A DNA stretch of 64,000 bases, taken from contig CP066682.1 in assembly GCA_016432285.1 (NCBI GenBank), forward strand, positions 602,274-666,273, written 5' to 3'. Below, in pieces: positions 30,166 to 63,751 of this stretch; the stretch's first letter is position 1, and every line of letters begins with the position of its first letter. The notes below the pieces were generated by a model. The model saw only the letters and a list, made by a program, of their open reading frames with translations. It did no database searches and had not been told where the DNA came from. Position numbers and translations under genes: made by a program. The DNA is from Candidatus Kaiserbacteria bacterium. Its GTDB lineage: Bacteria; Patescibacteriota; Minisyncoccia; Phycocordibacterales; UBA2100.

Positions 30166-30333
30166 ACGTAAGAAGTGAATCGTTAGCTGCTAAAACCGTA
30201 ACGAACCTTCTCTTTTTTACTGATACGCCGTGAATGATCGGTTAAACGCCGCTTTGTGGCACGCAAAAAAAGAATGGGGAATTTATGAAGTTTGGACTCT
30301 AAAAACGGCTCCGCATACAATCGGATCTACTTC

Positions 30334-30975
30334 ATGGGAGCATCATTGTTTTCGTTGTATACCTTTGCGATCGCTGCGGCGATCGCCGTCTCCACGCCCG
30401 GCATGGCACCGCAGCTTCTGATTGCCGCCCCCACTCCTGCCGAGGCCTTCGTGAGCCCTCCGCAGCCCTCCTTTGAGCAGCTCTCGCGCGATCTAAGCGC
30501 CGCGATCGTCGAGGCGATGCCGGAGATTGCGGGCCCGCAGGACATGCCGGTGCGCGTGCGGATCCCCTCGATCAAGCTCGACTCCCCCATCGAGAATATG
30601 GGGATCAACGCAAAAGGCGAGATGGACGTGCCGGACGGCGCCACCAACAACGTCGGCTGGTACAAGGACGGTACCGTCCCCGGCTTTACGGGAAGCTCGG
30701 TCTTCGACGCGCACGTGTACGCCGCATTCGCGAAGCTGCGCTACGTCAAAGTCGGCGACGAAATCTTCGTCACCACGGCGGGCGGCAAAACGCTTCGCTT
30801 CGTCGTCTCGGATTCCCGTGTATACAAACTGAACGAGCTCACCTCCGACATGCTCTTCGCGCAGAAAGACGCGAAGCGCCTCAATCTCATCACCTGCGCA
30901 GGGAAATTCGTCAAAGCGATCGACACGTACGACAAACGCCTCGTCGTGTACGCGATCTTCACTGGAGAGATCTGA
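30334..30975 (+). CDS. sortase-family transpeptidase
   Basis: TM anchor and LNLITCAG catalytic Cys motif (TLxTC); start taken at Met 15 of the ORF. Confidence 0.7.
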   Translation: MGASLFSLYTFAIAAAIAVSTPGMAPQLLIAAPTPAEAFVSPPQPSFEQLSRDLSAAIVEAMPEIAGPQDMPVRVRIPSIKLDSPIENMGINAKGEMDVPDGATNNVGWYKDGTVPGFTGSSVFDAHVYAAFAKLRYVKVGDEIFVTTAGGKTLRFVVSDSRVYKLNELTSDMLFAQKDAKRLNLITCAGKFVKAIDTYDKRLVVYAIFTGEI

Positions 30976-43724: not shown

Positions 43725-44688
43725 AGTTGCGGATCGAGTAGAGGTCGTCCTGCGCTTTTTCCTCCTGCTGCTCTTTCGCTTGCGGCTCCTCCGCTTGCGA
43801 AATCTCCTCCTGGATTTCTGGGATTTCGCCCGTGGCAGCGGCAACAGCAGACGGCGAGGCAGCCGCCTCTTTCAGCGTCAGCATGGAGCGGATGTGCGCG
43901 AGGTCGTCCACAGAGAAAAAGTCGATGAGTACCTTGCCACCCTGGTCCTTCTTCTCGATCCTGACGCGCGTGCCGAGCTTTTCGGTGAGCTCACGCTCCA
44001 GAAGCAGGAGCTCGGGCGTAAGGTCGCCCTTGCGGATCCGCTCGGTGGCGACTCGTCGCGCAAGCTGCTCCGCGTCGCGGACGTTGAGCTTGCGGGTGAT
44101 GATGTCGGTGTACAGCGTTTTTTGCTCGGCGGGCCTGTCGGAGAGCATGAGGAGGGGGCGTGTGTGGCCCTCGTTGATCGAGCCTCCTGAGAGCGCCTGC
44201 TGCATCTCCTCGGGGAGCATGAGAATGCGGAGCGTGTTGGATACGTACTCGCGGCTCTTGCCGACGCGCTTGCCGATGTCGACGTGCTTGAGGCCAAACT
44301 CGTTGGCGAGCCGCTGGAAGGCTTTCGCACGGTCGAGCGCGTTGAGATCCTCGCGCTGGAGATTTTCGATGATCGCGAGTTCGAGCTTCATGCGGTCGGT
44401 ATCTTCGGCGCTCCGGATCACGATCGGGACATTCAGGATCCCCGCGAGCTTCGCGGCTCGGAGGCGGCGCTCACCCGCGATCAGTTCGTACTCGACGAAG
44501 ATCCCCTCGCCCGGGCGCTCGATCTCTTTGCGGGTAACCGTAAGCGGCTGCAAGACTCCGTAGCTGCGGATCGATTCGGCGAGCGAGGTAAGCGCCGCGT
44601 CGTCGAAGACTTTGCGTGGCTGGAAGGGGTTGGGCTTGATCCGATCCACCTCCACCCAGAATATCGAGTCGTTGTAGTAGGACGACAT
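43714..44688 (-). CDS. parB: ParB/Spo0J-family protein
   Basis: ParB box GERRxRA, HTH, C-terminal dimerisation region; no adjacent parA. Confidence 0.85.
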   Translation of the reverse strand: MSSYYNDSIFWVEVDRIKPNPFQPRKVFDDAALTSLAESIRSYGVLQPLTVTRKEIERPGEGIFVEYELIAGERRLRAAKLAGILNVPIVIRSAEDTDRMKLELAIIENLQREDLNALDRAKAFQRLANEFGLKHVDIGKRVGKSREYVSNTLRILMLPEEMQQALSGGSINEGHTRPLLMLSDRPAEQKTLYTDIITRKLNVRDAEQLARRVATERIRKGDLTPELLLLERELTEKLGTRVRIEKKDQGGKVLIDFFSVDDLAHIRSMLTLKEAAASPSAVAAATGEIPEIQEEISQAEEPQAKEQQEEKAQDDLYSIRNFTV

Positions 44689-45199: not shown

Positions 45200-46087
45200 A
45201 TGTTGCAGAAAGTGATCGCTATCGTGGGGCCTACGTCGTCGGGAAAAAGTGCGCTCGCCGTACGACTGGCGAAGCGGTTCAAAGGAGAAGTGATCTCGGC
45301 CGACTCGCGGCAGGTCTACAAAGGTCTCAACATCGGCACCGGCAAGATTAAAAAGCGCGAGATGCGCGGGATCCGGCACCATCTCTTGGACGTGGCTTCG
45401 CCAAAACGGACCTTCACCGCCCACGATTTTATGCGCGAAGCGCAAGAAGCGATCACTATGATATATCAGAGTAAAAAACTTCCGATCGTCGCGGGCGGGA
45501 CGGGCTTTTATATCGATGCGCTTCTTGGGCGAATCTCACTTCCGGACGTGCCTGCGGATCCAAAACTGCGCGCTCGGCTCGAAAGAAAACCACTTGCTGC
45601 ACTCCTCCGGATGCTGAAGGGGCTTGATCCGAAGCGAGCAAAGACCGTCGAGCCCCACAATAAGCGCCGCATCGTGCGGGCAATCGAGATCGCGCTGTCA
45701 GCCCAAAAAACCCCAGAGACCAGGTCTCTGTATAAAACTCTCTGGATCGGGATCGCGCCACCATTTGCCGATCTCGAGCGAGCGATACGGAGCCGCCTCC
45801 GGGAGCGCATTCGCAAGGGGCTCATTCCAGAAGGTGCTCGGCTGCGGAAGCAGGGGCTCTCGTACAAGCGGATGCGGCAGCTCGGGCTTGAGTACGGCGC
45901 TCTCGCCGACTTGCTGGAAGAGATGATTGACAGGAAAGAATTCGAGGAGCGACTCTACCGGCACATCCGTCGGTACGCCAAAAAGCAACTCGCATATTGG
46001 AAACGAAATCGGTCGATCATGTGGTTCGACCCGTCGGATTACGCCCGCATCAAAAAAACAGTCACGAAATTTCTCGCGACGAAATAG
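45200..46087 (+). CDS. miaA: tRNA dimethylallyltransferase
   Basis: IAIVGPTSSGKS P-loop, ISADSRQVYKG motif. Confidence 0.85.
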   Translation: MLQKVIAIVGPTSSGKSALAVRLAKRFKGEVISADSRQVYKGLNIGTGKIKKREMRGIRHHLLDVASPKRTFTAHDFMREAQEAITMIYQSKKLPIVAGGTGFYIDALLGRISLPDVPADPKLRARLERKPLAALLRMLKGLDPKRAKTVEPHNKRRIVRAIEIALSAQKTPETRSLYKTLWIGIAPPFADLERAIRSRLRERIRKGLIPEGARLRKQGLSYKRMRQLGLEYGALADLLEEMIDRKEFEERLYRHIRRYAKKQLAYWKRNRSIMWFDPSDYARIKKTVTKFLATK

Positions 46088-46088
46088 T

Positions 46089-46721
46089 TCAGACCCTGCC
46101 CTTGCTCTCGTTGGCCGCGCGAATCTCTTTGCCGGTGATTTCACCTTCCGGACTCACGTCGTAGATATACACCTCCCCCGTCCCGATTTCGAGCTCCGAT
46201 ATTTTATCGTCAGGGATATCCTCGAGGTGCTTCACGAGCGCGCGCAGCGAGTTGCCGTGCGCCACGACCAGGATGTTCTTGCCCGATTTCAGCTCTGGCA
46301 GAATGTACTGCTCGTAGTATGGGACGACGCGCGCATGGACGTCCTTCAACGTCTCGCCTTCCGGGATCTTTACGTCCCATCCGCGACGTAGCTTCTGAAA
46401 CGCCTCCTCACCAATCTCTTCTTTCACTTCCCACTTGTTCTTGCCGGTGTATACGCCATAGTTCCGTTCCTTGATCGCAGGATGGACAATGCTCTTCATA
46501 GTGGGCTGGTCAATGACACGACAAATCTCCGTAAATGTCTCTTGCGCGCGCTTGAGGTCCGAAATAAAAGCGCAGTCGATGGATATGTCTTGTATCGCCT
46601 TGCCAGCGCGTTGGGCCTCCTTCACTCCCTCTTCGACGAGGCCGATGTCGGTAAAACCCGTCCACTTACCGAGCAAATTCCATTCCGATTTGCCGTGTCG
46701 TATGAGAATAAGTTTCGCCAC
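46089..46721 (-). CDS. gpmA: 2,3-bisphosphoglycerate-dependent phosphoglycerate mutase
   Basis: LIRHGKSEWN signature; GTG start 9 nt downstream of a TATAAT box. Confidence 0.85.
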   Translation of the reverse strand: MAKLILIRHGKSEWNLLGKWTGFTDIGLVEEGVKEAQRAGKAIQDISIDCAFISDLKRAQETFTEICRVIDQPTMKSIVHPAIKERNYGVYTGKNKWEVKEEIGEEAFQKLRRGWDVKIPEGETLKDVHARVVPYYEQYILPELKSGKNILVVAHGNSLRALVKHLEDIPDDKISELEIGTGEVYIYDVSPEGEITGKEIRAANESKGRV

Positions 46722-46730
46722 AGTGCGATT

Positions 46731-46736
46731 ATTATA
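46731..46736 (-). promoter_or_regulatory. -10 box TATAAT 9 nt upstream of gpmA GTG (leaderless-type)
   Basis: no SD between box and start. Confidence 0.35.
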
Positions 46737-47268
46737 CGTCGAACTCCTCGACGGACGCATTTCCAATGTGTTGAACAGCAGTTTCTTTAAACAACAGATG
46801 AGCGAGCCTCAATATGCCGGCGTGAGCGACGATAAGAACCGTCTGCCTTTCGTAGCCTTGCTTGATTTCATCCACTACTTTGAGAAACCGCTTCTTAAAA
46901 CCGAGAGCAGATTCGCCGCCAAGCGGACGGTAGTCGTAGTTTTGAGCCTTGTCGAGAGCTTTCAGCTCATCCGCATTCTCAACCTGATCCCACGTCTTCC
47001 CAGAAAGTGAGCCGAAATCGCGCTCCATCAGTTCCTTGCGCAACTCTATGGGGATATTCTTGTCCCTTGAAACGATTTCTGCCGTTTCTCGCGCCCGCTT
47101 GAGTGGTGAAGAAAAAATCACGTCGATTTTCGTCGACGCGAGCACGGCCGCAAGGGCTTCGACTTGACGACGACCTTCGGCGTTCAATGGCTGATCAATA
47201 CGCTGGCCTTGTATGACGCCGGTTGCGTTGGAATCCGTCTGCCCGTGCCTTGCCATCAGTACTTTCAT
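46732..47268 (-). CDS. histidine phosphatase family protein (CobC/PGM-like)
   Basis: [17 protein letters not shown] motif; 178 aa. Confidence 0.7.
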
Positions 47269-48554
47269 GCACTGAAGATATTGCCTGCAAAAACGGCCTT
47301 GGAGCCGAGCTGCTCCTCGATTCGCAGCAGTTCGTTGTACTTGGCGGTGCGGTCGGTACGACTGAGGGAGCCCGTTTTGATCTGTCCGGTGCCGAGCCCC
47401 ACCGCGATGTGCGAGATCGTCGTATCTTCGGTTTCTCCCGAGCGGTGCGAGATCACCGCCTTCCACCCGGCTTTGTGCGCCATGTCCACGGCAGCGATCG
47501 TTTCGGTGAGCGTACCGATCTGGTTGACCTTGATGAGAATCGCATTGGCGGATTTTTCATTGATCGCGCGCTCGAGAAACTTGACGTTGGTCACGAGGAG
47601 GTCGTCGGCCACGAGCTGCAACTTTGCCCCGAGCCGCTCCGTCAGCTTCTTCCAACCGTCCCAATCGTCCTCTGAGAGCCCGTCCTCGATCGACTTGATC
47701 GGATACTTCGCCGAGATCCGCTCATACCACGCAATCATCTCTTCGGGAGAGAATTTCACGTTTTCCATCCGCGAGAGATAGCCTTGTGCTTCCCGCAGCT
47801 CCGACGCCGCCACATCGAGCGCGATGACGACATCTTCGCCGGGCCGGTACCCCGCCTTCTCGATCGCTTCGACAATGAGAGCGAGTGCCTCCTCGTTGCC
47901 GCCCTTTACCGCAGGCGCAAAACCGCCTTCGTCGCCTACCGTGGTGCCGTATCCTTTTTCGTGGAGCACTTTTTTGAGCGAGTGGAATACTTCCGTACTC
48001 GCGCGAATCCCCTCCCGAAAGGTGGGGGAGCCGACAGGCTGGACCATGAATTCCTGCACGTCGGTCGACTGCCAGCTCGTATGCGCGCCGCCGTTGAGGA
48101 TGTTGCACATCGGGAGCGGCAGCAGCGGCTCGCGCGGCGCACCTGAGAGCGCACCGATGTATTCGTACAGTGGAATCTTTTTGGAGCGTGCGGCGGCGTG
48201 GGCGGCGGCGAGCGAGACGGCGATGATCGCATTGGCACCGATGCGCGACTTATTTTCCGTGCCATCGAGTGCGATCATCGCCTCGTCGACACCCTTTTGA
48301 TTGAATACGTCTTTACCCGCCAGCGTCTTTTGGATTTCTGTATTCGTGTTTTCAACAGCGTGCAAAACACCTTTGCCCCCGTAGCGTTTCTTGTCGCCGT
48401 CACGTAGCTCGTGCGCTTCATGGGAGCCGGTCGAGGCCCCGGAAGGCGCTATCGCGCGCCCGAGCGTGCCATCTTCGAGCAGCACGTCGGCTTCAACGGT
48501 CGGATTCCCTCGCGAATCCAACACCTCGCGCGCGTGAACCGATTTGATTTTCAT
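47265..48554 (-). CDS. eno: enolase
   Basis: 429 aa; [22 protein letters not shown]-terminus and full enolase body. Confidence 0.9.
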
Positions 48555-48902: not shown

Positions 48903-49298
48903 CTAGCAGATCTTGTTCCAGGGGCCGAGCTCGGCGCCGGTAAATACGCGCATGATCGTGTCGACAATCAGCCACGCCGCGAGAAGCAGCGCGAGGCCGA
49001 TGAAGACGTTCATGAATATCTCCTTGCCTTTGGTCTTGCCGCCCTCGCCGCCCGCCGTCATGTACGTCCAGCCCGCGTACGCGAAGAGCACTGCCGAAAT
49101 GAAGATCGCGATGTAGATGCCTGCGTTGAGGATATTTTGCGCCGACTTCGCGAGATCGCAGATGCCGCACGGCGGCTGCCCCGTGTTGCCGCATTCGACC
49201 AGCGTCGGGATTACGTTTTGCGCGGAGGCAGCGTAGGGGAAAACGACGAACGAAGCGAGCAGGAGCGTGAGGAGCGCAACGCGGACGCTTTGTACCAT
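48903..49298 (-). CDS. pilin-like small membrane protein (signal peptide plus two TM helices), paralog of the 59.3-61.3 kb array
   Basis: 131 aa from MVQSV; same layout as the array (TM1, charged GGEGGKTKGKE loop, TM2 with AAWLIV); stop codon abuts tRNA-Trp 3' end. Confidence 0.5.
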   Translation of the reverse strand: MVQSVRVALLTLLLASFVVFPYAASAQNVIPTLVECGNTGQPPCGICDLAKSAQNILNAGIYIAIFISAVLFAYAGWTYMTAGGEGGKTKGKEIFMNVFIGLALLLAAWLIVDTIMRVFTGAELGPWNKIC

Positions 49299-56699: not shown

Positions 56700-56772
56700 G
56701 GCCACATGGCGAAGTAGCAACGCGGCGGTCTGCAAAACCGCTACTGGGTGGGTGCAACTCCCACTGTGGCCT
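56700..56772 (+). tRNA. tRNA-Cys-like cloverleaf (anticodon GCA, U73 discriminator) with atypical D and T loops
   Basis: GGCCACA/TGTGGCC acceptor, GCGGT-CTGCAAA-ACCGC anticodon arm, GTGGG-TGCAACT-CCCAC T-arm (TGC not TTC), D-loop lacks GG; ends 1 nt before the methyltransferase ATG. Confidence 0.45.
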
Positions 56773-56773
56773 C

Positions 56774-57577
56774 ATGAAAAAAAGGATCAATGATCTTGAT
56801 CTTTCAAAGTGGAAAAAGTACGAGGATCTCTGGACCGACAGTCTCTGGATGATCGACGCGCGCGACCGAAGCGGCGCGCACACCAACACTTACCACGGCA
56901 ATTTCGTGCCCCAGATCCCCCACCAGCTGATGCGCCGCTTCACCAAAAGGGGCGACGTGGTGCTCGACGGCTTCCTCGGCAGCGGTACGACGCTGATCGA
57001 AGCGAAACGCCTCGGGAGGTGCGGCATCGGCGTGGAGCTTCTGCCGCAGGTCGCGAATCGCGCCAAGAAGAATGTGCAGGCACAGGAAGGCGCGGGAAAG
57101 AGTGAAATTGTCGTCGCCGATAGCACGACGAAAAAAGCACACGCAGGAGTGGCGACGGCACTCAAGAGTATGAGGAAAAAATCTGCGCAGCTCCTGCTAC
57201 TGCACCCGCCGTATCACGACATCATCAAGTTCAGCAGCAAAAGGGGGGATTTGAGCAACGCAACGACCGTCGAGGAATTCACGCGGCGCTTCGGCGATGT
57301 GGTCGCCAATCTCTGCCCCTTCCTCGCAAAAGGCGGACATGTGGCGGTGGTGATCGGCGACAAGTACTCAAACAGCGAGTGGGTGCCGCTCGGCTTCTAT
57401 CTCTTGCAGGAGACGCTGAAGCGCGATCCATCGCTCAGGCTGAAGAGCGTGATCATCAAAAATATGGCGGGCAATCGCGCGAAGCAGAATCAGGGGCGCC
57501 TGTGGCGCTACCGCGCCCTCAAGGGCGGGTACTATATTTTTAAGCACGAGTACGTACTCCTTTTCAAAAAAAGCTGA
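56774..57577 (+). CDS. SAM-dependent N6/N4 DNA methyltransferase-like protein (FxGxGTT then HPPY motifs)
   Basis: LDGFLGSGTT (motif I) then LLLHPPYHDI ((D/N/S)PPY-type motif IV); no restriction partner nearby. Confidence 0.65.
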   Translation: MKKRINDLDLSKWKKYEDLWTDSLWMIDARDRSGAHTNTYHGNFVPQIPHQLMRRFTKRGDVVLDGFLGSGTTLIEAKRLGRCGIGVELLPQVANRAKKNVQAQEGAGKSEIVVADSTTKKAHAGVATALKSMRKKSAQLLLLHPPYHDIIKFSSKRGDLSNATTVEEFTRRFGDVVANLCPFLAKGGHVAVVIGDKYSNSEWVPLGFYLLQETLKRDPSLRLKSVIIKNMAGNRAKQNQGRLWRYRALKGGYYIFKHEYVLLFKKS

Positions 57578-57591
57578 TAGAGTATCCGCAC

Positions 57592-57674
57592 GCCGGGGTG
57601 GCGAAATTGGTCATACGCGCGCGACTTAAGATCGCGTTCCGCAAGGAGTGTGGGTTCGAGTCCCACCCCCGGCA
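57592..57674 (+). tRNA. tRNA-Leu (anticodon TAA)
   Basis: GCCGGGG/CCCCGGC acceptor, anticodon loop CTTAAGA, long variable arm, GTGGG-TTCGAGT-CCCAC. Confidence 0.8.
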
Positions 57675-57890
57675 CAACAACAGTTGAAGCGGGAGCGAAG
57701 CTCTCGCTGATCACTGTTGTCTGCCGGAGTGGGACGAGAAGGCGAGCGGCGGAGGCTCCGCCAACAGGCGGAGCGCCGTGAGCAGGGCCGAGAGGAGTGA
57801 GGAGCGACGGCGACGAAAGAGCTCTTGGCCGAGCAAACTCACCGGCACAACCCTACAAAACGAATCTTTTTCGTGTAGAATCTCACAGAT

Positions 57891-57963
57891 CCGCCCATAG
57901 CTCAGTTGGTAGAGCAGTCGCCTCTTAAGCGAACGGTCGTAGGTTCGAATCCTACTGGGCGGA
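57891..57963 (+). tRNA. tRNA-Lys (anticodon CTT)
   Basis: CCGCCCA/TGGGCGG acceptor, GCTC-AGTTGGTA-GAGC D-arm, anticodon loop CTCTTAA, TAGG-TTCGAAT-CCTA T-arm; 5' C1 is unusual. Confidence 0.7.
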
Positions 57964-57970
57964 CAATGAT

Positions 57971-58354
57971 ATGAACATGGGAGAAGAGCGTTACGTGGTC
58001 GATATGCGTATCAAGGAGCACGCCCTCGATCTGGAGGTTCGCTTTTTTACACATTGGTCAGTGCTATCCGGCGGCACATTCTCACTCTTGGTTCCGCTAG
58101 TACAGAGCTTAAAAAAGCCGATGTCCGCCGTTGTGTTTTTTCAAATGGGAGAGGTCTTTTTGATAATTTCGCTCTTAGTTGCTGCATTGGGATTATTTGC
58201 CTCAAAGAACTATGCGAGGGAACGGTCATTCCACGGAGACCCCGCATCATCGTTGAGTAAGACGACGAAGGATTTGTGTGGGAAGACGGCGCTGGTTTCA
58301 TATGCACTGGGAATAATTGCGATAGCTATTTTCATAGACAGCAATCTGCTATAA
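57971..58354 (+). CDS. low-GC membrane protein of unknown function
   Basis: 127 aa, three TM helices; composition visibly AT-richer than surroundings; flanked by tRNA-Lys and tRNA-Leu. Confidence 0.5.
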   Translation: MNMGEERYVVDMRIKEHALDLEVRFFTHWSVLSGGTFSLLVPLVQSLKKPMSAVVFFQMGEVFLIISLLVAALGLFASKNYARERSFHGDPASSLSKTTKDLCGKTALVSYALGIIAIAIFIDSNLL

Positions 58355-58364
58355 CTAGCGAATC

Positions 58365-58446
58365 GGGCGAGTGGCGGAACTGGTACACGCGCACGGCTTA
58401 GGACCGTGTCCCGAAAGGGATGAGAGTTCGAGTCTCTCCTCGCCCA
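58365..58446 (+). tRNA. tRNA-Leu (anticodon TAG)
   Basis: GGGCGAG/CTCGCCC acceptor, anticodon loop CTTAGGA, long variable arm, GAGAG-TTCGAGT-CTCTC. Confidence 0.8.
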
Positions 58447-58472
58447 CACTTCGACAAGCTCAGTGTAAACAC

Positions 58473-59291
58473 ATGGATTTCAAATACTTTTCCAAGAATG
58501 GCGTGGCCCTTCCTTTGGCCGAAGCGGTCGTGCCGCTTTCGAATATCGAATACCAATACGGCTTCGGGGTGTACGAAAACGTGCGGGTCGTGCGCGGCCG
58601 GCCGCTCTTTCTCGACGATCACGTTGAGCGGCTCGAAGAATCGGCGCGGATCATCGGTCTCGAGCATCCGTTCGAAAGTACTGCGATACATCATAGTGTC
58701 GACGAATTGATCGCGAAGAATGAGATCGACACTGCAAATCTGAAGCTGCTTCTCCTCGGCGGCCGCAGCGAGGCAGAAGCGAGCCTTTTTATACTCCCCC
58801 TCAATCCCCTTTTCCCCGACAAAAAAATCTATCGCGACGGCGTGCTCTTGGTGAGCCACCAGTACGAACGGCTCTTTCCGCACGCGAAGACTCTCAACAT
58901 GCTCGGGAGCTTCCTCGCCTACCGCAAGGCGAAAGCGGCAGACGCGTACGATGCGCTCTTGATCGACCGCCAAGGCTTCGTCACCGAAGGCACCCGCACC
59001 AACTTCTTCGCGCTCAAAGGGAAAACGATTTATTCGCCTCCGGAATCCGAGATTCTCCTCGGTGTTACCCGGAAGTACGTGCTTGAGGCCGCGCATAGGA
59101 GCGGATTCGCGCTAGAGGAAAGAAAGATCACTCTTGCGGACCTGAAGGAATACGACGCCGCGTTCATCACGAGTACCTCTTCAAAAATCCTTCCGGTGCG
59201 GCAAATCGACGACGCCTCGGTCGACGTGAGCGCGCCCGCGCTGCGGGAGCTGATGACTGCGTTCGACGACTTTTTACAAAAGACTACTTGA
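58473..59291 (+). CDS. class IV aminotransferase (BCAT / D-amino-acid AT / PabC-like)
   Basis: 272 aa from MDFKYF; fold-type IV PLP enzyme motifs (E..R..G, LLGVTR); the longer ORF would overlap tRNA-Leu. Confidence 0.75.
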   Translation: MDFKYFSKNGVALPLAEAVVPLSNIEYQYGFGVYENVRVVRGRPLFLDDHVERLEESARIIGLEHPFESTAIHHSVDELIAKNEIDTANLKLLLLGGRSEAEASLFILPLNPLFPDKKIYRDGVLLVSHQYERLFPHAKTLNMLGSFLAYRKAKAADAYDALLIDRQGFVTEGTRTNFFALKGKTIYSPPESEILLGVTRKYVLEAAHRSGFALEERKITLADLKEYDAAFITSTSSKILPVRQIDDASVDVSAPALRELMTAFDDFLQKTT

Positions 59292-59601
59292 AGCCGCCGC
59301 CGGGCGCGGAGAGATTGTTGAGGCCCGAGGTGTCGAAGCCCTGCCCGCTCAAGGCGCCGAGATTGAAGGTGTTGTCGAGGAGCGCCAGGATGCCGTAGAC
59401 CGACACCATGATCACCATGCCGATGATGCCCCAAAGCATGTGCCGTACGCCGTCCTCGCGCTTACCGCCCTCGTCGAGCCCGAGCACGAACTGCACGAGC
59501 CCCCACATAAACATAAAAAAACCGGCGGCGAATACGACGAGTATCGCCGGATTGATGATGTAGGTGACGAATCGTCCGAGGATCGTTGCGGCTTCTTGCA
59601 T
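59284..59601 (-). CDS. pilin-like small membrane protein, paralog 1
   Basis: 105 aa; TM1, charged loop DEGGKRED, TM2 MLWGIIGMVIMVSVYGI. Confidence 0.55.
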   Translation of the reverse strand: MQEAATILGRFVTYIINPAILVVFAAGFFMFMWGLVQFVLGLDEGGKREDGVRHMLWGIIGMVIMVSVYGILALLDNTFNLGALSGQGFDTSGLNNLSAPGGGFK

Positions 59602-59633
59602 GCGCCGGAAGTGGCCCTTACGGGCTCACCGCG

Positions 59634-60002
59634 TTAGTTGGAGTAGTAACCCGGATTCACCTGGATGCCCTTGGGGATGATCGGATCGGTGGAGGTAACC
59701 TTGAGGGTGCTCTGGAGGAGGCGGATGATGCCCCAGATACTCACCATCACGAAGATAGCGATGAGGCCCCAGAACATGATTTTGAGGCTCTCGTGCGCGT
59801 TCTCCGTGTCCATGCTCCAGAGGTACTTGATGAGCCCCCAAAAGAAGACAACGATCGCGAGCGTGATGAAAAGGCCGATGATGCCGTTGAGGAAGGTGCT
59901 CACGAAGACGAGCGTGTCCTGAAGCGTGGCGGCCGCGGCGAGAGCAGGGAGCGCGAGCGACAGGGCGGCAATCGACGAAACGGCTGCAAAACGTGAACGC
60001 AT
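59634..60002 (-). CDS. pilin-like small membrane protein, paralog 2
   Basis: 122 aa; signal peptide, TM1, loop SMDTENAHESLK, TM2 MFWGLIAIFVMVSIWGI. Confidence 0.55.
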   Translation of the reverse strand: MRSRFAAVSSIAALSLALPALAAAATLQDTLVFVSTFLNGIIGLFITLAIVVFFWGLIKYLWSMDTENAHESLKIMFWGLIAIFVMVSIWGIIRLLQSTLKVTSTDPIIPKGIQVNPGYYSN

Positions 60003-60113
60003 AAATAGTGCTGATTAGGTTAGAGTAGTAGCTTCATGGTAGCCGTCCATGGCCAAAATACAATCAGCTTCCCACGCCGCTGTGGATAAAGCCGGCAGCG
60101 GGAAATAGCTGCG

Positions 60114-60521
60114 CTAGTGCTCGTCGTCTCTTCCTCCCTCCTTCTTTTTCTTCGGGGCCGCGGCGGTGCGGAGTATCACCACGGCCATCGCGCCGATGAG
60201 CAGCACGCCGAGCACGAAGAGCGCCTGCTGCGTGTACCAATGGAAGAGCCGCACGAGCCCCAAGAGCACGATGAGCACGAAGGCCATCGTAACGGCCCAC
60301 TCAAGCACGCGGATAGCCGTCTCCCGGTGCGTGGGCCAGGTGCCGAGGCGCGCGAGATAAACGAAGAATCCGGCGGCAAAAGTGAGGAGTATCGCCACCA
60401 GAAAGAGGCCGACGAAAAGATAGAAGAGTCCCAAAAGCTGCGGCACGGTCATCGCCTCGGCTGGCTGCGGAAACAAGGTGGCGAGAAAGAGGAGTGGGGC
60501 GCTGCGAACGATGAACCTCAT
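60114..60521 (-). CDS. pilin-like small membrane protein, paralog 3
   Basis: 135 aa; signal peptide plus hydrophobic helices, Lys-rich tail; 4-nt overlap with paralog 4. Confidence 0.5.
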   Translation of the reverse strand: MRFIVRSAPLLFLATLFPQPAEAMTVPQLLGLFYLFVGLFLVAILLTFAAGFFVYLARLGTWPTHRETAIRVLEWAVTMAFVLIVLLGLVRLFHWYTQQALFVLGVLLIGAMAVVILRTAAAPKKKKEGGRDDEH

Positions 60522-60925
60522 ATTGCTTGTACACCGTACTGGTCGATGGTGCCGGGCCGCGTGGTGCCACCGCTGCCGCCGCTGCTACAGACGTTGATCG
60601 GCTGCCCTCCCTCGCCAACGCCGTTGTCGAAGAGCGTATTTTTCACGATCGCCACAATGCCCCAGATGCTGAACATGACAAAGAGAATGATGAGTCCCCA
60701 AAAGAAGTAGGCCTTCACCTTTTCGTGATCCTTCTCCTCCCCGAAATGCCCGATGTTGGTCGCGATGCCGTAAAAGTAGGCGACGAGGCCGAGGAGGATC
60801 ACGGTCATCGTGGCCGTATCGAGAATGCTCACCACCGTGCAGGCGAGTTCGGTGAATGTCTTCGGCGCCGCGAGCGCGACGCCGGGCAAAAAAAGCGTGA
60901 GTGCCGCGAGTACCGCCCGCTTCAT
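60518..60925 (-). CDS. pilin-like small membrane protein, paralog 4
   Basis: 135 aa; signal peptide, TM1, loop GEEKDHEKVKA, TM2 YFFWGLIILFVMFSIWGIV, Gly-rich tail. Confidence 0.55.
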   Translation of the reverse strand: MKRAVLAALTLFLPGVALAAPKTFTELACTVVSILDTATMTVILLGLVAYFYGIATNIGHFGEEKDHEKVKAYFFWGLIILFVMFSIWGIVAIVKNTLFDNGVGEGGQPINVCSSGGSGGTTRPGTIDQYGVQAI

Positions 60926-60929
60926 ACAA

Positions 60930-61283
60930 TCAGCCAGTGAGTTGCCGCACAGTGCCAGCGATTAGAGTGGCCAGCACCCACGCCCCCATGATGAGGAGCG
61001 CGCCGAGTATCACGTAGACGAAATTGCGCTTCGCGGTTTCAAGCTCCCCCGGATTCCCCTGTGCCGTGATGAACTTGAAGCCCGCGATCACCACGAAGAG
61101 CGTGATGATGGGAATCGCGATCATCACGAGCACTTTCATCGCGCCCGCCACAAAGGAAGCGATGTCGGAAAAGTTGAGCGGATTTTTGAGCGCAACTTCG
61201 GCGCTGCTTACAAGCGGGAGCAGCAAAAAGAGCGCCGAGCCAGCAGCGGCGGTCGCACGTGCTATGAATCGTGATCGTGTCAT
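60930..61283 (-). CDS. pilin-like small membrane protein, paralog 5
   Basis: 117 aa; signal peptide, TM1, loop AQGNPGELETAKRN, TM2; 4-nt overlap with upstream gene. Confidence 0.55.
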   Translation of the reverse strand: MTRSRFIARATAAAGSALFLLLPLVSSAEVALKNPLNFSDIASFVAGAMKVLVMIAIPIITLFVVIAGFKFITAQGNPGELETAKRNFVYVILGALLIMGAWVLATLIAGTVRQLTG

Positions 61284-62584
61284 TGTCCTAAAATCACGGC
61301 GAGCTCCTGATTCGCGCGCTGGATGGATTCGGTGATGCGCAAAGCCCCGCTCGTCACGCCCTCAATCATAGCGCGGAAAATCGAATCGGTTTTCTGCGGA
61401 TCGGGATCGGTCCAGGATTTCGCAACGATCGCCTGCTTGTTGAAAAGATCTTCGCTCCCTTCGAGCCGCGGCTGCGAAAGAAGGTCGCGCCGCGCCGAGG
61501 GTATCCCGAGCGCCGTCGAGAGCGCGGCGGAAACTTCGCGCGCCGCGAGGAGCGTGGCGACCGTGATCGCGCCCTGCGGATTCTTGCTCGTGCGCGTCGT
61601 GGCGAGGCCCCACACGTGCGCGGCGGTGATCGCGCGCTCCGCGCCCTGCACCTGCGGCACCGGAGCGACGCTGAAATTGAGGTTGGGGTTCATGCGGGAG
61701 ATGAGCGGGGCTTCGCTCGCGTAGCCAAAGTAGAGCGCGAGATCCCCCGCCGCGAAGGCGGCACGCGCCTCCGGAAGCGCCCTGCTCCATGAGTAGTCGG
61801 CCTTCGACGGATCCGCAAACTCGGTATAGAAGCGGATCGCGCTCTCTACGGCTTGGCTCGTGCCGACGCCGGTGCGCTGCGAGAGCGAAGGGACGAGACG
61901 GCCGGTGTTGTCTCTCGAAGTGATCGAGCCGCCGGCCTGTAGGATGAGTGTGGCGATGATGTCTTTGGCGTTGTTCACATTCTGGTATTCGCCGAAGGCA
62001 ACCGCCGCCTTCGTGATTGAGCCGGATTCGTTTTTCTTGACCACGGCCTTCGCGATGTCGTTGAGCTCGCTCCAGACTTTCGGCGCCTGCGCGAACCCGG
62101 CAGTCGCAAGCACATCTTTGTTCCAGTACATCACGAGAGGGTCCGCGAGGATCGGCGCAGCGAGCGCGCCACTCGGCGTGAAGTACGGGTCCGCCGCTTC
62201 CACAAAGACATTTTTGAATTGCGCCTCCGGCAGCAGGCTCGTGGGTATCGCCACCACCTTGCCGCTATCGCGCATCGCGTAGTCCTGTCGGAGGAGAAAG
62301 AGATCAGGGCCGGTGCCGCTCGCGAGCGCGTTCAAGAGCTCCTCCTCGTAGGTCTCGCTGTCCTTCTCCACGTACGTTACTTGCCCGAGGCGGCTGTCGT
62401 CTTCGGCGACCTGCCGGATTACCGCCGCGAAGGCGCTCGGATTGAGGGGGCCCCAAATCGTGATCGGCCCGATGCCGCTGCCGCCGCCTCCGCCCACAAA
62501 GAGAGCGAAGATAAGAATCCCGGCGACGCCAAAAGCGCCGAAGGCCGCTAGCAGAATCACCTGGAACGGGGAGAAATTTTTCAT
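61280..62584 (-). CDS. TM-anchored extracellular solute-binding-protein-like protein
   Basis: 434 aa; N-terminal TM then a periplasmic-binding-protein-like two-lobe domain; no permease or ATPase genes nearby. Confidence 0.5.
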   Translation of the reverse strand: MKNFSPFQVILLAAFGAFGVAGILIFALFVGGGGGSGIGPITIWGPLNPSAFAAVIRQVAEDDSRLGQVTYVEKDSETYEEELLNALASGTGPDLFLLRQDYAMRDSGKVVAIPTSLLPEAQFKNVFVEAADPYFTPSGALAAPILADPLVMYWNKDVLATAGFAQAPKVWSELNDIAKAVVKKNESGSITKAAVAFGEYQNVNNAKDIIATLILQAGGSITSRDNTGRLVPSLSQRTGVGTSQAVESAIRFYTEFADPSKADYSWSRALPEARAAFAAGDLALYFGYASEAPLISRMNPNLNFSVAPVPQVQGAERAITAAHVWGLATTRTSKNPQGAITVATLLAAREVSAALSTALGIPSARRDLLSQPRLEGSEDLFNKQAIVAKSWTDPDPQKTDSIFRAMIEGVTSGALRITESIQRANQELAVILGQ

Positions 62585-63165
62585 ACGGAGGCGACGTACG
62601 CGGGCCGCAGCAGAAGGCCGTAGTGATGCGCCCCCACCGAAAATTCCCGCAAGAGCGCGAGCCCCGCCCCACCAGCGAGGGCGAGCGCTGCTTCTTTTTT
62701 GACCACTTCCTCTTTCACGGGGCCGAGGCCGCCAAACGAATCGCTCCAGTCGATCACTGCCACGCTGCCGCCGGGCTTCACGATGCGGCGTGCTTCGCGG
62801 AGCGCCGGGATTTTGTCGGGGAGTTGAAACAAGAGATTGGAGATGAGCACGAGGTCGATGCTCTGGTCGGCGAGCTTCGAGGCGCGAGGCGCTTCAAGAT
62901 CGGTCCAGATCACCTCGACGTTTTTCAGGCCGCGATGCGCGGCTTCGTTGGCGGTGCGCCGCAAGAGATCCCGCTGCACGTCGATCGCGTACACGCGACC
63001 GCTTCCTTCGAGTCTCTCCGCGATCGCGAGCGTGTAGGCGCCGCTCCCCGAGCCGAAATCGGCAACTTGAAACCCGGCCTGAATGCCGAGCGAGGAAATA
63101 GCGCGCTTTGGCTGTGCGAAGCCCTCCGTGCGAAGCGGAGTCCGATGATGTGCAGTCTTCTGCAT
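62581..63165 (-). CDS. class I SAM-dependent methyltransferase
   Basis: VADFGSGSGAY motif I and VKPGGSVAVID post-I region; first gene of the coupled operon. Confidence 0.7.
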   Translation of the reverse strand: MQKTAHHRTPLRTEGFAQPKRAISSLGIQAGFQVADFGSGSGAYTLAIAERLEGSGRVYAIDVQRDLLRRTANEAAHRGLKNVEVIWTDLEAPRASKLADQSIDLVLISNLLFQLPDKIPALREARRIVKPGGSVAVIDWSDSFGGLGPVKEEVVKKEAALALAGGAGLALLREFSVGAHHYGLLLRPAYVASV

Positions 63166-63172
63166 CCTCTCT

Positions 63173-63178
63173 ATTATA
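63173..63178 (-). promoter_or_regulatory. -10 box TATAAT 7 nt upstream of the methyltransferase ATG (leaderless-type)
   Basis: minus strand GGATATAATAGAGAGGATG; the AGAGAGG sequence abuts the ATG so is unlikely to act as SD. Confidence 0.4.
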
Positions 63179-63245
63179 TCCGCGTATGAAGCGTATGGTG
63201 GCTTATGAGCGCGGAATCTGGGGAAATAGAATCACGCATCGGGAA

Positions 63246-63280
63246 CCAAAAAGAAACCGCGGCGCTTCGCGCCGCGGCAT
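63246..63280 (-). terminator. rho-independent terminator
   Basis: CCGCGGCGC-gaag-GCGCCGCGG then TTTCTTTTT on minus strand. Confidence 0.7.
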
Positions 63281-63301: not shown

Positions 63302-63751
63302 TTAGTCGTCCGGCTTCCAGCCGCGTACGACCCACTTGCGGATCTGCACCTCAAATACTTCCGTGCGACCTCCTTCCCTTTTCACGCGGTTGACGGCGAG
63401 AAAGAGATTCGGTAAGCGCTTGATGAGCTTCTGCGTTTGCCGCAGCACGGCGAGGCGGTTTTTATCGAACCGGATCGGTTGGTTGCCGCCCATGAGAAGC
63501 AGTCGAAGCACTCCCTTCCTGATACTGTCTGGTTCGAGCATCGCCATGACGCGCTCAATGCGGCTGGTGTCGAGCTCCGAGAGCACCGATGTATGCGCCT
63601 CGGAGAGCACTTCGAAGCGCACACGCACCTGCTGCTCGGGAAATGGCACGGCGTTGGCCCCGCCCCACTCCACAGCCAGCGCGAGAAGACGCGCTTCCAT
63701 TTGAGCGCGCCGCGCTTCAAACGTTGTCTTTTCGACCATCACGACCTCCAC
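63302..63751 (-). CDS. hypothetical protein (149 aa)
   Basis: downstream of the gyrA-like gene; no family recognised. Confidence 0.45.
   Translation of the reverse strand: MEVVMVEKTTFEARRAQMEARLLALAVEWGGANAVPFPEQQVRVRFEVLSEAHTSVLSELDTSRIERVMAMLEPDSIRKGVLRLLLMGGNQPIRFDKNRLAVLRQTQKLIKRLPNLFLAVNRVKREGGRTEVFEVQIRKWVVRGWKPDD

What the first reader, a model, noticed from the sequence alone, without database searches (positions are those of the whole stretch)
59284..63165. Translationally coupled operon: SAM methyltransferase, TM-anchored binding protein, five tandem pilin-like paralogs
Seven minus-strand genes are packed with 4-nt overlaps (ATGA-type) or gaps of 110 nt or less. They run from a leaderless-type promoter at 63173 to a convergent gene end at 59284. 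The five distal genes are clear paralogs of 105-135 aa with the same layout. Each has a signal peptide, a first hydrophobic helix, a short Lys/Glu-rich loop (DEGGKRED, SMDTENAHESLK, GEEKDHEKVKA, AQGNPGELETAKRN), a second helix with a recurring (F/L)WG(I/L)I...S(I/V)(W/Y)GI pattern and a variable tail. This is the architecture of VirB2/TrbC-type conjugative pilins and of the abundant small 'pilin' proteins in reduced monoderm lineages. No secretion ATPase, VirB4/VirD4 or prepilin peptidase is in the window. The co-transcribed class I SAM methyltransferase and the orphan solute-binding-like protein suggest a modification or assembly module that has not been described. Tandem paralogy also suggests antigenic or functional variation.
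Basis: partly seen in the sequence, partly recalled or inferred. Interest (0 to 1): 0.75.

Follow-up and report, generated by a model that had tools for sequence, protein, structure and literature searches.

The report
Conserved pilin-array operon in Kaiserbacteria
An ultra-small, probably host-dependent groundwater bacterium (Candidatus Kaiserbacteria) carries an operon that joins five different conjugation-pilin-like membrane proteins to a sugar-binding protein and a methyltransferase; the pilin-like gene arrays are already known in these bacteria, but this fixed seven-gene combination, kept in the related species examined, appears undescribed and may hint at what the pilins are for.

Summary
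The seven minus-strand genes are real and lie at the stated coordinates. The organism is a Candidatus Kaiserbacteria MAG (Patescibacteria/CPR). P1 passes Pfam's curated thresholds for T4SS_pilin and TrbC/VirB2. P2-P5 are mutual homologues by profile comparison, and their orthologues hit T4SS_pilin (42/42 for P4, 37/42 for P5, 10/42 for P3).

Some details of the finding are wrong. P5 has no signal peptide. P3 has a third helix and a basic cytoplasmic tail. P1 is only distantly related to the others.

MT-SBP-P1-P2-P3-P4-P5 is collinear in 44 of 86 related loci. MT-SBP plus 4-8 pilin-like genes persists down to 40% SBP identity. gyrA is usually upstream, and no VirB4-like gene lies within 6 kb.

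Each slot is orthologous and is conserved about as well as the SBP. This argues for a fixed heteromeric assembly and against antigenic variation.

The leaderless promoter is conserved. A second promoter precedes P4. Both carry a DnaA-box-like element 39-41 nt upstream of the -10.

CPR pilin arrays are published; I found no paper describing the SBP/methyltransferase linkage. Function remains inferred. Verdict: new variant of a known kind, moderate interest.

The parts
63256..63278 (-). Intrinsic-terminator-like hairpin (10-bp stem, 9 G-C pairs, T-run). It closes the upstream gyrA-side transcription unit just before the operon promoter.
63219..63226 (-). Upstream box TTTCCCCA of the MT promoter, ending 40 nt before the -10.
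   Evidence: a box of this type ends 39-41 nt upstream of the -10 in 24 of 38 related loci (25 of 38 within 30-60 nt), against a background of 0.016 per 30 nt.
63173..63178 (-). -10 hexamer TATAAT, 7 nt before the MT start codon (leaderless-type promoter).
   Evidence: sequence. TATAAT/TATACT lies 6-8 nt from the start codon in 35 of 38 related loci.
62581..63165 (-). Cytoplasmic class I SAM-dependent methyltransferase, 194 aa. Motif I is VADFGSGSG; a conserved N-terminal GFAHPxRN motif is present.
   Evidence: (Methyltransf_31, 69 bits), (best solved relative 3dh0, then phosphoethanolamine N-methyltransferases). Present in 82 of 86 related loci.
61280..62584 (-). Membrane-tethered MalE-like solute-binding protein, 434 aa. 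It has an N-terminal TM helix (residues 6-30) with a conserved S-x-F-Q motif, a Gly-rich linker and a two-lobed SBP fold.
   Evidence: SBP_bac_1, 82.8 bits; AF2 pLDDT 87.4; Foldseek hits to oligosaccharide-binding proteins, E about 1e-20.
60930..61283 (-). P1: TrbC/VirB2-type pilin-like protein, 117 aa. It has a signal peptide (VSSA|EV) and two hydrophobic helices, and is translationally coupled to the SBP.
   Evidence: PF18895 35.1 bits against 26.6; PF04956 28.7 against 27.9; weak tblastn hits, of which the 15 listed all lie under 'TrbC/VirB2 family protein' genes of Firmicutes plasmids, mostly conjugative.
60518..60925 (-). P2: pilin-like paralogue, 135 aa. It has a signal peptide (ALA|AP), two helices and a Gly/Ser-rich C-terminal tail.
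   Evidence: (hhalign 99.7% to the P4 slot).
60114..60521 (-). P3: divergent paralogue, 135 aa. It has a signal peptide (AEA|M), three hydrophobic helices and a Lys-rich tail predicted to be cytoplasmic.
   Evidence: 98.2% to P4, 95.6% to P2; 10 of 42 orthologues hit PF18895.
60081..60089 (-). TTATCCACA box, identical to the DnaA-box consensus, 39 nt upstream of the P4 -10-like hexamer. It is the only exact copy in the 64-kb window.
   Evidence: TTATCC[AC]CA lies within 200 nt upstream of P4 in 27 of 41 related loci, against a background of 0.0011 per 200 nt.
60036..60063 (-). Putative internal promoter for P4-P5: TTGTAT (60063-60058), a 16-nt spacer, then TACCAT (60041-60036).
   Evidence: conserved ATTGTGT ... 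TATACCATTGAGGTACTT block in related loci. The median P3-P4 gap is 111 nt. No transcription start has been measured.
59634..60002 (-). P4: the most conserved pilin-like subunit, 122 aa. It has a signal peptide (AAA|A), a helical hairpin (27-62 and 66-102), the WG..FVMVSIWGI motif and a conserved tail.
   Evidence: median 64% identity to orthologues; 42 of 42 hit PF18895.
59284..59601 (-). P5: pilin-like subunit without a signal peptide, 105 aa, last gene of the array. Its end overlaps the convergent aminotransferase gene by 8 nt.
   Evidence: 37 of 42 orthologues hit PF18895.

Best explanation
This is a chromosomal, lineage-wide cell-envelope operon of Paceibacteria-type CPR bacteria. The window is from a Candidatus Kaiserbacteria MAG. 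It encodes five non-interchangeable members of the VirB2/TrbC 'T4SS_pilin' family (P1-P5). It also encodes a MalE-like oligosaccharide-binding protein held in the membrane by one conserved TM helix, and a cytoplasmic class I SAM methyltransferase.

Shown: the gene content and homologies; orthology of each slot; collinearity across related species; ATGA start/stop overlaps (taken as translational coupling) of MT to SBP and of SBP to P1; a conserved leaderless promoter; and a conserved promoter-like block in front of P4-P5 that shares an upstream box with the first promoter.

Inferred: the five small proteins and the SBP's TM helix assemble in fixed roles into one heteromeric membrane or pilus-like structure. 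P4 would be the major subunit, because it is the best conserved and has its own promoter. P3 would be the membrane-retained base, because of its third helix and basic cytoplasmic tail. P1 would be the SBP-proximal subunit. The structure would work together with the VirB4-type T4SS that most of these genomes encode elsewhere. The SBP would supply glycan recognition, either for adhesion to the host or for capture of host-derived oligosaccharide. The methyltransferase would modify a component or a small-molecule partner of the structure. The array is a fixed multi-subunit set and is not a variation cassette.
For: Family membership: P1 is above the curated thresholds for PF18895 and PF04956. P4 and P5 are just below threshold in the window, but 42/42 and 37/42 of their orthologues hit PF18895 at E of 0.01 or better, and 10/42 for P3. 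Profile comparisons link P2, P3, P4 and P5 at 95.6-99.7% for five of the six pairs; P3-P5 is 61%. P1's only non-CPR hits lie, in all 15 listed records, under 'TrbC/VirB2 family protein' genes of Firmicutes plasmids, 32 of 39 predicted conjugative. One of these was checked and sits in a VirB11/VirD4 cluster.

Conservation: 577 species-level genomes encode an SBP relative. In the 80 best loci plus 6 others, MT is found in 82, P1 in 82 and P2/P4/P5 in 81. The order is exactly MT-SBP-P1-P2-P3-P4-P5 in 44 loci. At 40% SBP identity, MT-SBP is still followed by 4-8 pilin-like genes, with a P1-type first and a P5-type last.

Coupling: 4-nt overlaps at MT/SBP and at SBP/P1 in 30 of 41 loci each.

Slot orthology and purifying selection.

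Promoters.

T4SS elsewhere: 9 of 12 cluster-bearing draft genomes are listed as VirB4-positive in Table S1 of PMC12102498.

Precedent: a series of pilin genes is essential in the Saccharibacteria T4SS cluster (PMC10633639).
Against: No T4SS ATPase or channel gene lies within 6 kb of the cluster in any of 84 loci or in the parts of the 64-kb window that were scanned. Three of 12 genomes are listed as VirB4-negative, though they are drafts. Four of the five window proteins are individually below Pfam's gathering score.

P5 lacks a signal peptide and P3 has a third TM helix, which are not features of canonical extruded pilins. The inter-helix loops are mixed or acidic; the lumen-facing loops of solved conjugative pili, from my own knowledge, are basic.

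The fold search of the P4 model and the profile searches against the PDB gave nothing significant. No physical evidence exists for a pilus, for SBP-pilin contact or for methylation. gyrA is also syntenic in 72 of 84 loci, so part of the conservation could be plain synteny.
Confidence: 0.55

Rival explanations
1. A T4SS-independent membrane complex. The five small two- to three-helix proteins, about 11 TM helices plus one from the SBP, stay in the membrane. They form a docking platform, channel or 'bindosome-like' scaffold for the MalE-like binding protein. This would be an uptake or sensing device for host-derived oligosaccharides. Pilin homology would then reflect ancestry only.
For: The SBP is always directly upstream of P1 and is usually joined to it by a 4-nt overlap. 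There is no VirB4 within 6 kb in 84 loci, and 3 of 12 genomes are scored VirB4-negative. P3 has a third helix and a cytoplasmic basic tail, and P5 has no signal peptide. The SBP's TM helix carries an S-x-F-Q motif kept in 90% or more of 81 sequences. The authors of PMC9905601 argue that conjugative pilins descend from bona fide membrane proteins. The Sulfolobus bindosome shows that binding proteins can be organised by pilin-like partners (PMC3047682).
Against: The cluster has no energising component such as an ABC ATPase or an ion-coupled permease. The small proteins give no significant match to transporter families. P1 reaches the TrbC/VirB2 threshold, and its non-CPR relatives sit in conjugation gene clusters. 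The bindosome uses type IV pilin-like proteins and a dedicated ATPase, and neither is present here.
Confidence: 0.22
2. Conserved neighbourhood without a shared function. The pilin array is a T4SS accessory. The methyltransferase and/or the binding protein are unrelated housekeeping genes that happen to share a compact, rarely rearranged stretch next to gyrA.
For: gyrA is upstream on the same strand in 72 of 84 loci, so this region is generally syntenic. The methyltransferase resembles small-molecule methyltransferases and not known protein or pilin modifiers. The SBP has an ordinary sugar-binding fold.
Against: A terminator and a dedicated promoter separate the operon from the gyrA side. MT/SBP and SBP/P1 overlap by 4 nt in 30 of 41 loci each. 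The block stays intact down to 40% SBP identity while the downstream flank changes. Both promoters carry the same box at the same distance from the -10.
Confidence: 0.13
3. A variation cassette. Tandem VirB2-like paralogues provide antigenic or host-range variation, as proposed for Bartonella and Anaplasma and suggested for CPR arrays in PMC12102498 and by the first reader.
For: Paralogues within the array are only 16-26% identical to P1. The C-terminal tails, predicted to face outward, differ between paralogues.
Against: Each slot has its own orthologues with conserved order, topology and length. Own-slot HMM scores are 148-188 bits against 82 or less for other slots. Median identities of 37-64% are comparable to the SBP and MT. 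Slot-specific features are conserved: P5 without a signal peptide and P3 with a third helix. No sign of recent duplication or gene conversion was seen.
Confidence: 0.05

Closest known systems
VirB2-like pilin arrays of Patescibacteria/CPR (Quinonero-Coronel et al. 2025, PMC12102498; essential pilin series in the T4SS cluster of Ca. Southlakia epibionticum, PMC10633639; 'array of 4-6 small Sec-signal proteins' in TM7x, PMC7427843)
   Same: Tandem sets of small, highly divergent PF18895/PF04956-type proteins on the chromosome of a CPR bacterium. Most have Sec-type signal peptides. No relaxase context is present.
   Different: This array is not in or next to the virB4 cluster. It is hard-wired to a MalE-like binding protein and a SAM methyltransferase. 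It has five orthologous slots with slot-specific topology. [quoted passage not shown]
TrbC/VirB2 family proteins of Gram-positive conjugative plasmids (for example Enterococcus faecium pZB18, pLS20-type systems)
   Same: These are P1's only detectable non-CPR relatives (about 26-35% identity over 67-82% of P1). They have the same size and the same two-helix layout.
   Different: On plasmids the gene is single and sits among VirB11, VirD4-like and pLS20_p028-family conjugation genes. Here it heads a five-gene array without those genes. The E-values are weak, 5e-3 to 0.7.
Conjugative pilins VirB2, TraA and TrbC, and the archaeal import pilins CedA1 and TedC (PMC9905601)
   Same: The hydrophobic helical hairpin behind a signal peptide is the same. 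Ced and Ted show that VirB2-like pili can serve import and not only export, which fits a nutrient-scavenging organism.
   Different: Those pili are homopolymers of one pilin plus lipid and are encoded next to VirB4- and VirB6-like genes. Here there are five distinct subunits and no adjacent ATPase. No filament has been observed.
Sulfolobus bindosome (Bas system; PMC3047682)
   Same: Sugar-binding proteins whose surface deployment depends on small pilin-like proteins encoded with them. This is a functional analogy for 'binding protein plus pilin-like partners'.
   Different: Bas uses class III (type IV pilin-like) signal peptides, the PibD peptidase and a dedicated ATPase and membrane protein. 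Here the SBP N-terminus lacks a G/A(-1) class III site, the partners are VirB2-type, and the cluster has no ATPase.
Carbohydrate ABC importers (MalEFGK2 type)
   Same: The binding protein has the SBP_bac_1 sequence family and the MalE-like fold.
   Different: No MalF/G-type permease or ABC ATPase gene lies within 6 kb in any of 84 loci. In their place is the pilin-like array.

Membership tests
Pfam PF18895 T4SS_pilin / PF04956 TrbC-VirB2 pilin | Profile-HMM score at or above the curated gathering threshold | tested here: met
   Met for P1: PF18895 35.1 bits against 26.6, and PF04956 28.7 against 27.9. The solo gene at 48903-49298 also passes, with 29.0 bits.
Pfam PF18895 T4SS_pilin / PF04956 TrbC-VirB2 pilin | The same threshold applied to P2, P3, P4 and P5 of the window | tested here: inconclusive
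   The window proteins score 13.6 bits (P2), no hit (P3), 22.9 (P4) and 24.3 (P5), all below 26.6. Their orthologues hit PF18895 at E of 0.01 or better in 42/42 (P4), 37/42 (P5) and 10/42 (P3). hhalign links P2-P5 to each other at 95.6-99.7% for five of six pairs (P3-P5 61%), but links P1 to them at 28% or less.
Conjugative (VirB2-type) pilins | Cleavable signal peptide followed by two hydrophobic helices joined by a short loop | tested here: inconclusive
   Met by hydropathy and AxA motifs for P1, P2 and P4, and by the AF2 hairpin for P4. Not met for P5, which has no signal peptide. P3 has an extra third helix. No dedicated signal-peptide predictor was available.
Conjugative (VirB2-type) pilins | Encoded with the T4SS core (VirB3, VirB4, VirB6) | tested here: not met
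   None among the window ORFs scanned. No VirB4-size conserved ORF within 6 kb in 84 related loci. VirB4 is reported elsewhere in 9 of 12 of these genomes.
Conjugative (VirB2-type) pilins | Polymerises with lipid into an extracellular filament | not testable with these tools
   This needs cryo-EM or cryo-ET, or analysis of the shearing fraction. The fold search of the P4 model was not informative.
CPR VirB2 arrays as defined in PMC12102498 | Two to eleven pilin genes in tandem or separated by one gene, with low mutual identity | tested here: met
   Five adjacent genes. Identity to P1 is 16-26%. The paper reports a mean of 25% within arrays.
ABC-transporter solute-binding protein, family 1 | SBP_bac_1 profile match and a two-lobed MalE-like fold | tested here: met
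   PF01547 82.8 bits against 26. AF2 pLDDT 87.4. Foldseek E about 1e-20 and TM 0.62-0.74 to oligosaccharide-binding proteins.
ABC-transporter solute-binding protein, family 1 | Cognate permease and ATPase genes in the same operon | tested here: not met
   No such genes in L002, L004 or L006 (Pfam-annotated). No recurrent large ORF other than gyrA, infB and neighbours in 84 loci. A partner elsewhere in the genome cannot be excluded.
Archaeal bindosome (Bas) | [quoted passage not shown] | tested here: not met
   The SBP N-terminus is (M/K)xxS-x-F-Q with no Gly/Ala at -1 and no Glu at +5. The partners are PF18895 proteins. The cluster has no ATPase.
Class I SAM-dependent methyltransferase | Rossmann-type methyltransferase domain with motif I (D/E-x-G-x-G-x-G) | tested here: met
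   Methyltransf_31 69.1 bits, Methyltransf_25 59.6 and Methyltransf_11 56.6. The sequence reads VADFGSGSG. No equivalog-level NCBIfam assignment was obtained, so the substrate is unknown.
   No PHROGs hit at E of 0.01 or better. No such Pfam or NCBIfam hit for the window proteins. Only 1 of 42 P3 orthologues touches a holin family.

The most novel reading that the evidence does not exclude
The operon encodes a pilin-derived nutrient-capture apparatus. A heteropolymer of five VirB2-like subunits would carry or dock a MalE-like glycan-binding protein. Together with the distal VirB4 machine, it would run a T4SS-type conduit in the import direction, as the archaeal Ced and Ted systems do for DNA. 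It would draw oligosaccharide-type material from the host. The methyltransferase would tune a lipid or subunit component. Both promoters would be tied to the cell cycle through DnaA-type boxes.
Probability: 0.1. Interest if true: 0.85.

Novelty: new variant of a known kind. Interest (0 to 1): 0.5.

Why it matters
The role of the T4SS and of its unusual pilin series in Patescibacteria is called 'completely unknown' in a 2024 perspective (PMC11665869). Yet these genes are essential in the one genetically tractable species (PMC10633639).

I found three things here that I did not see described in the papers I searched. First, across the related Paceibacteria-type loci examined, five distinct pilin-like proteins are kept as fixed orthologous slots. 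Second, they are translationally coupled to a sugar-binding protein and a methyltransferase. Third, they appear to be driven by two promoters that share one upstream box.

This turns a vague 'pilin array' into a defined seven-part module with testable subunit roles. It also points to a candidate ligand class (glycans), which fits the idea that these systems serve host attachment or nutrient acquisition. It argues against the published reading of such arrays as variation cassettes, at least for this lineage.

Tried and rejected
- Fold search of the AF2 model of P4 against the PDB found no match with E of 0.001 or better and no pilins among the top 50. A helical hairpin is too simple for this test.
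- Profile searches of the P1 and P4 slot alignments against PDB sequences gave nothing, or only chance-level cytochrome oxidase hits.
- PHROGs gave no hits.
- tblastn of P4 against plasmids gave no match.
- A strict regular expression joining the box and the -10 found nothing in the window, because the two promoters differ in their hexamers. Anchored alignments were used instead.
- The generic sigma-70 scan found no promoter in the region. The promoters proposed here rest on cross-species conservation and not on that scan.
- Rfam gave nothing at gathering score for the window or for six related loci. An E-value scan of the operon region gave nothing credible.
- RNA folding of the P3-P4 spacer gave a modest z of -2.1 in the window and -0.3 in L004, so I make no claim of a structured RNA.
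- Considered and dropped: the SBP N-terminus as a class III or prepilin signal (no Gly at -1); P3 as VirB3 (no profile support); an origin of replication at the TTATCCACA box (single box, no cluster).

Full report
**What is there**

They are MT 62581-63165 (194 aa), SBP 61280-62584 (434 aa), P1 60930-61283 (117 aa), P2 60518-60925 (135 aa), P3 60114-60521 (135 aa), P4 59634-60002 (122 aa) and P5 59284-59601 (105 aa). All have the third-position GC excess of real genes in this 58-61% GC window (GC3 0.71-0.84). An independent public contig carries the same seven called genes.

The junctions read from the sequence are as follows.
- ATGA overlaps at MT/SBP, SBP/P1 and P2/P3.
- A 4-nt gap between P1 and P2.
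- A 111-nt gap between P3 and P4.
- A 32-nt gap between P4 and P5.
- An 8-nt overlap of P5 with the convergent class IV aminotransferase gene.

A strong terminator-like hairpin at 63278-63256 precedes the operon. It is followed by TATAAT at 63178-63173, 7 nt before the MT start codon.

**Organism**

The SBP is 100% identical to a protein of a 'MAG: Candidatus Kaiserbacteria bacterium' on an 859-kb contig. This is a Patescibacteria/CPR organism of the class Paceibacteria. The rest of the window is housekeeping. It encodes ClpB, RelA/SpoT, ParB, topoisomerase I, SerRS, IF-2, DnaX, G6PD and others. It also encodes a sortase and eight tRNAs.

**Identities of the proteins**

MT is a class I SAM methyltransferase (Methyltransf_31, 69 bits; motif I VADFGSGSG). 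It has no equivalog-level assignment. Its closest solved relatives are an uncharacterised Aquifex methyltransferase (3dh0) and phosphoethanolamine N-methyltransferases.

The SBP matches SBP_bac_1/8. Its AF2 model is confident (pLDDT 87.4). It shows an N-terminal TM helix, a Gly-rich linker and a MalE-like two-lobed fold. Its nearest structures are oligosaccharide-binding proteins (Foldseek E about 1e-20, TM 0.62-0.74, 14-20% identity).

P1 passes the curated thresholds of both PF18895 (T4SS_pilin) and PF04956 (TrbC/VirB2). P4 and P5 fall just short (22.9 and 24.3 bits against 26.6). P2 is weak and P3 has no hit. NCBIfam gives sub-threshold hits to the Mycoplasma ICE 'pilin-like conjugal transfer protein' for P1, P2, P4 and P5.

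Within the window, P2, P4 and P5 are clear paralogues (27-52 bits). P3 is weakly related to P4 and P5. P1 is barely related to any of them.

Topology by hydropathy:
- P1, P2 and P4 have a signal peptide with an AxA site followed by two helices.
- P3 has a signal peptide, three helices and a KKKK-containing tail.
- P5 has no signal peptide.

**Comparative evidence**

Three distant Kaiserbacteria contigs show the same order: gyrA, MT, SBP, a PF18895 gene and four more small genes.

A scan of one genome per species with an SBP alignment found relatives in 577 genomes. The best 80 loci, at 39-66% identity, come from MAGs labelled Kaiser-, Adler-, Campbell-, Zambryski- and Nomurabacteria and from other Paceibacteria-type MAGs.

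Over 86 loci, local searches find MT in 82, P1 in 82, and P2, P4 and P5 in 81 each. The exact order MT-SBP-P1-P2-P3-P4-P5 occurs in 44. Loci at about 40% SBP identity keep MT-SBP followed by 4-8 pilin-like genes, with a P1-type first and a P5-type last.

In 41 canonical loci, MT/SBP and SBP/P1 overlap by 4 nt in 30 each. The P3-P4 gap has a median of 111 nt.

Median identity of each window protein to its slot orthologues:

| Slot | Median identity |
|---|---|
| MT | 59% |
| SBP | 58% |
| P1 | 54% |
| P2 | 43% |
| P3 | 37% |
| P4 | 64% |
| P5 | 52% |

Each window protein scores 148-188 bits on its own slot's HMM and 82 bits or less on any other.

Profile-profile comparison links P2 to P4 (99.7%), P4 to P5 (99.3%), P2 to P5 (98.3%), P3 to P4 (98.2%) and P2 to P3 (95.6%). 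P3 to P5 is 61%, and P1 is at 28% or less to all.

Scanning every slot member against Pfam gives PF18895 for 42/42 P4, 37/42 P5 and 10/42 P3.

The five genes are therefore ancient, specialised paralogues held under purifying selection. They are not a recent or variable tandem family.

**Relation to the T4SS**

No VirB4, VirD4 or VirB11 gene is among the ORFs scanned in the window, which cover every ORF over 425 aa. No recurrent large ORF other than gyrA, infB and neighbours lies within 6 kb in 84 loci.

Table S1 of PMC12102498 lists 9 of 12 cluster-bearing draft genomes as VirB4-positive. That paper states that in Paceibacteria virB4 tends to lie near dnaA and dnaN.

P1's only matches outside CPR are weak tblastn hits (E 5e-3 to 0.7). 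In all 15 listed records they lie under genes annotated 'TrbC/VirB2 family protein'. The plasmids are from Firmicutes, and 32 of the 39 are predicted conjugative. In pZB18 that gene sits among VirB11, VirD4-like and pLS20-type conjugation genes.

**Regulation**

Anchored alignments show TATAAT or TATACT 6-8 nt before the MT start codon in 35 of 38 related loci, and exactly 7 nt before it in 24. This supports a leaderless transcript.

A box of the form TTTCCCCA or TTGCCCACA ends 39-41 nt upstream of that -10 in 24 of 38 loci. The background is 0.016 per 30 nt.

The P3-P4 spacer contains a conserved block. It reads TTATCC(A/C)CA, about 12 nt, ATTGTGT, about 16 nt, then TA(TA)CCAT followed by TGAGGTACTT. 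TTATCC[AC]CA is present within 200 nt upstream of P4 in 27 of 41 loci, against a background of 0.0011 per 200 nt.

In the window the box is TTATCCACA at 60089-60081. This is the DnaA-box consensus and the only exact copy in 64 kb. It lies 39 nt upstream of TACCAT at 60041-60036.

Of four box-type matches in the window, the only two intergenic ones are these two promoters.

I infer an internal promoter for P4-P5 and a shared regulator for both promoters. Neither has been measured.

**What is already known**

Arrays of 2-11 VirB2-like pilin genes in CPR genomes are described. In that study they have about 25% mutual identity and are interpreted as possible variation (PMC12102498). A series of predicted pilins inside the Saccharibacteria T4SS cluster is essential (PMC10633639). 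An 'array of 4-6 small Sec-signal proteins' was noted in TM7x (PMC7427843). Two full-text searches for a link between such arrays and solute-binding proteins or methyltransferases returned nothing.

**Interpretation**

The best-supported reading is a fixed, heteromeric envelope module. Five VirB2-family subunits would have distinct roles:
- P4 as the probable major subunit.
- P3 as a membrane-retained base.
- P5 inserted without a signal peptide.
- P1 coupled to the SBP.

A membrane-tethered glycan-binding protein and a methyltransferase are co-produced with them. The module probably works with the VirB4 machine encoded elsewhere. The assembly itself, the role of the SBP and the target of the methyltransferase are inferences.

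The main rival is a T4SS-independent membrane platform for the binding protein. That would be analogous, not homologous, to the Sulfolobus bindosome (PMC3047682). The archaeal Ced and Ted pili show that VirB2-like filaments can serve import (PMC9905601).

Weaker rivals are conserved synteny without shared function and a variation cassette. The data here speak against the second.

**Verdict**

The pilin-family interpretation is supported. The variation idea is not supported. The array as such is a known kind. The conserved MT-SBP-five-slot architecture, with its two box-bearing promoters, appears undescribed and is a useful lead. It is not a new category of system.

Noticed in passing
window 48903-49298 (-): A sixth, solo pilin-like gene of 131 aa, with a signal peptide and a Cys-rich N-terminal part. 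It passes the PF18895 threshold (29.0 bits) and is hit by the P1 and P4 slot HMMs. It lies between tRNA-Trp and tRNA-Tyr. The mechanical ORF runs antisense into tRNA-Tyr, so the real start is the internal Met at 49298.
   Followed up: partly
window 60081-60089 (-) and 63219-63226 (-); L002-L061: Both proposed promoters of the operon carry a conserved box 39-41 nt upstream of the -10. At P4 the box is TTATCCACA, the DnaA-box consensus. At MT it is TTTCCCCA or TTGCCCACA. These are the only intergenic copies of the box in the window. The factor that binds it is unknown. PMC12102498 reports that virB4 of Paceibacteria usually lies near dnaA.
   Followed up: partly
L004:9594-9760, and the same spacer in L007, L008, L011, L014, L016: In several related loci the P3-P4 spacer is 100-150 nt longer. 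The extra part is a conserved GC-rich stretch with short hairpins (GCCCACACGTGCTCGTGTGTGC ... GAGCCCTTCGGGCGCCTCGCGGCGGGG) that is absent from the window. It gave no Rfam match, and the folding z-score for L004 was only -0.3.
   Followed up: partly
window 61280-62584 (-), residues 1-32 of the SBP: The single TM helix of the binding protein is as conserved as its globular part (0.62 against 0.60 mean column conservation over 81 sequences). It starts with an S/T-x-F-Q motif kept in 90% or more of sequences down to 40% identity. That is unusual for a mere anchor. It is not a class III or prepilin site.
   Followed up: partly
window 56700-58447 (+): A tRNA cluster (Cys, Leu-TAA, Lys, Leu-TAG) is interleaved with an N6/N4 DNA methylase gene (56774-57577) and a small membrane ORF without family (57971-58354). 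The mechanical GTG start of the aminotransferase ORF (58371) overlaps tRNA-Leu 58365-58447. Public gene calls use a later start, giving 272 aa. ARAGORN finds this tRNA-Leu but Rfam at gathering score does not.
   Followed up: no
window 43714-44688 (-) and about 46000-48000: A ParB gene lies near the minimum of the cumulative GC skew of the window (about 46-48 kb). This could mark a replication origin or terminus some 12-15 kb from the operon. No cluster of DnaA boxes was seen: 5 matches with one mismatch or fewer in 64 kb, as expected by chance.
   Followed up: no
window 22068-23618 (-): A 516-aa ORF with coding-type GC3 (0.79) has no Pfam match at E of 1e-5 or better and a hydrophobic C-terminal third. 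It is an uncharacterised membrane protein.
   Followed up: no
window 30292-30975 (+), 6028-6984 (-), 28568-29905 (-): A sortase gene and several secreted or anchored proteins without family were seen. They include a 318-aa Ser/Ala/Gly-rich protein with a signal peptide. These are monoderm-type surface features typical of CPR genomes.
   Followed up: no
window 63302-63751 (-): A 149-aa ORF lies between gyrA and the operon's terminator and has no Pfam or PHROGs match. This position is not conserved: it is absent in L004 and holds a 241-aa ORF in L006.
   Followed up: no
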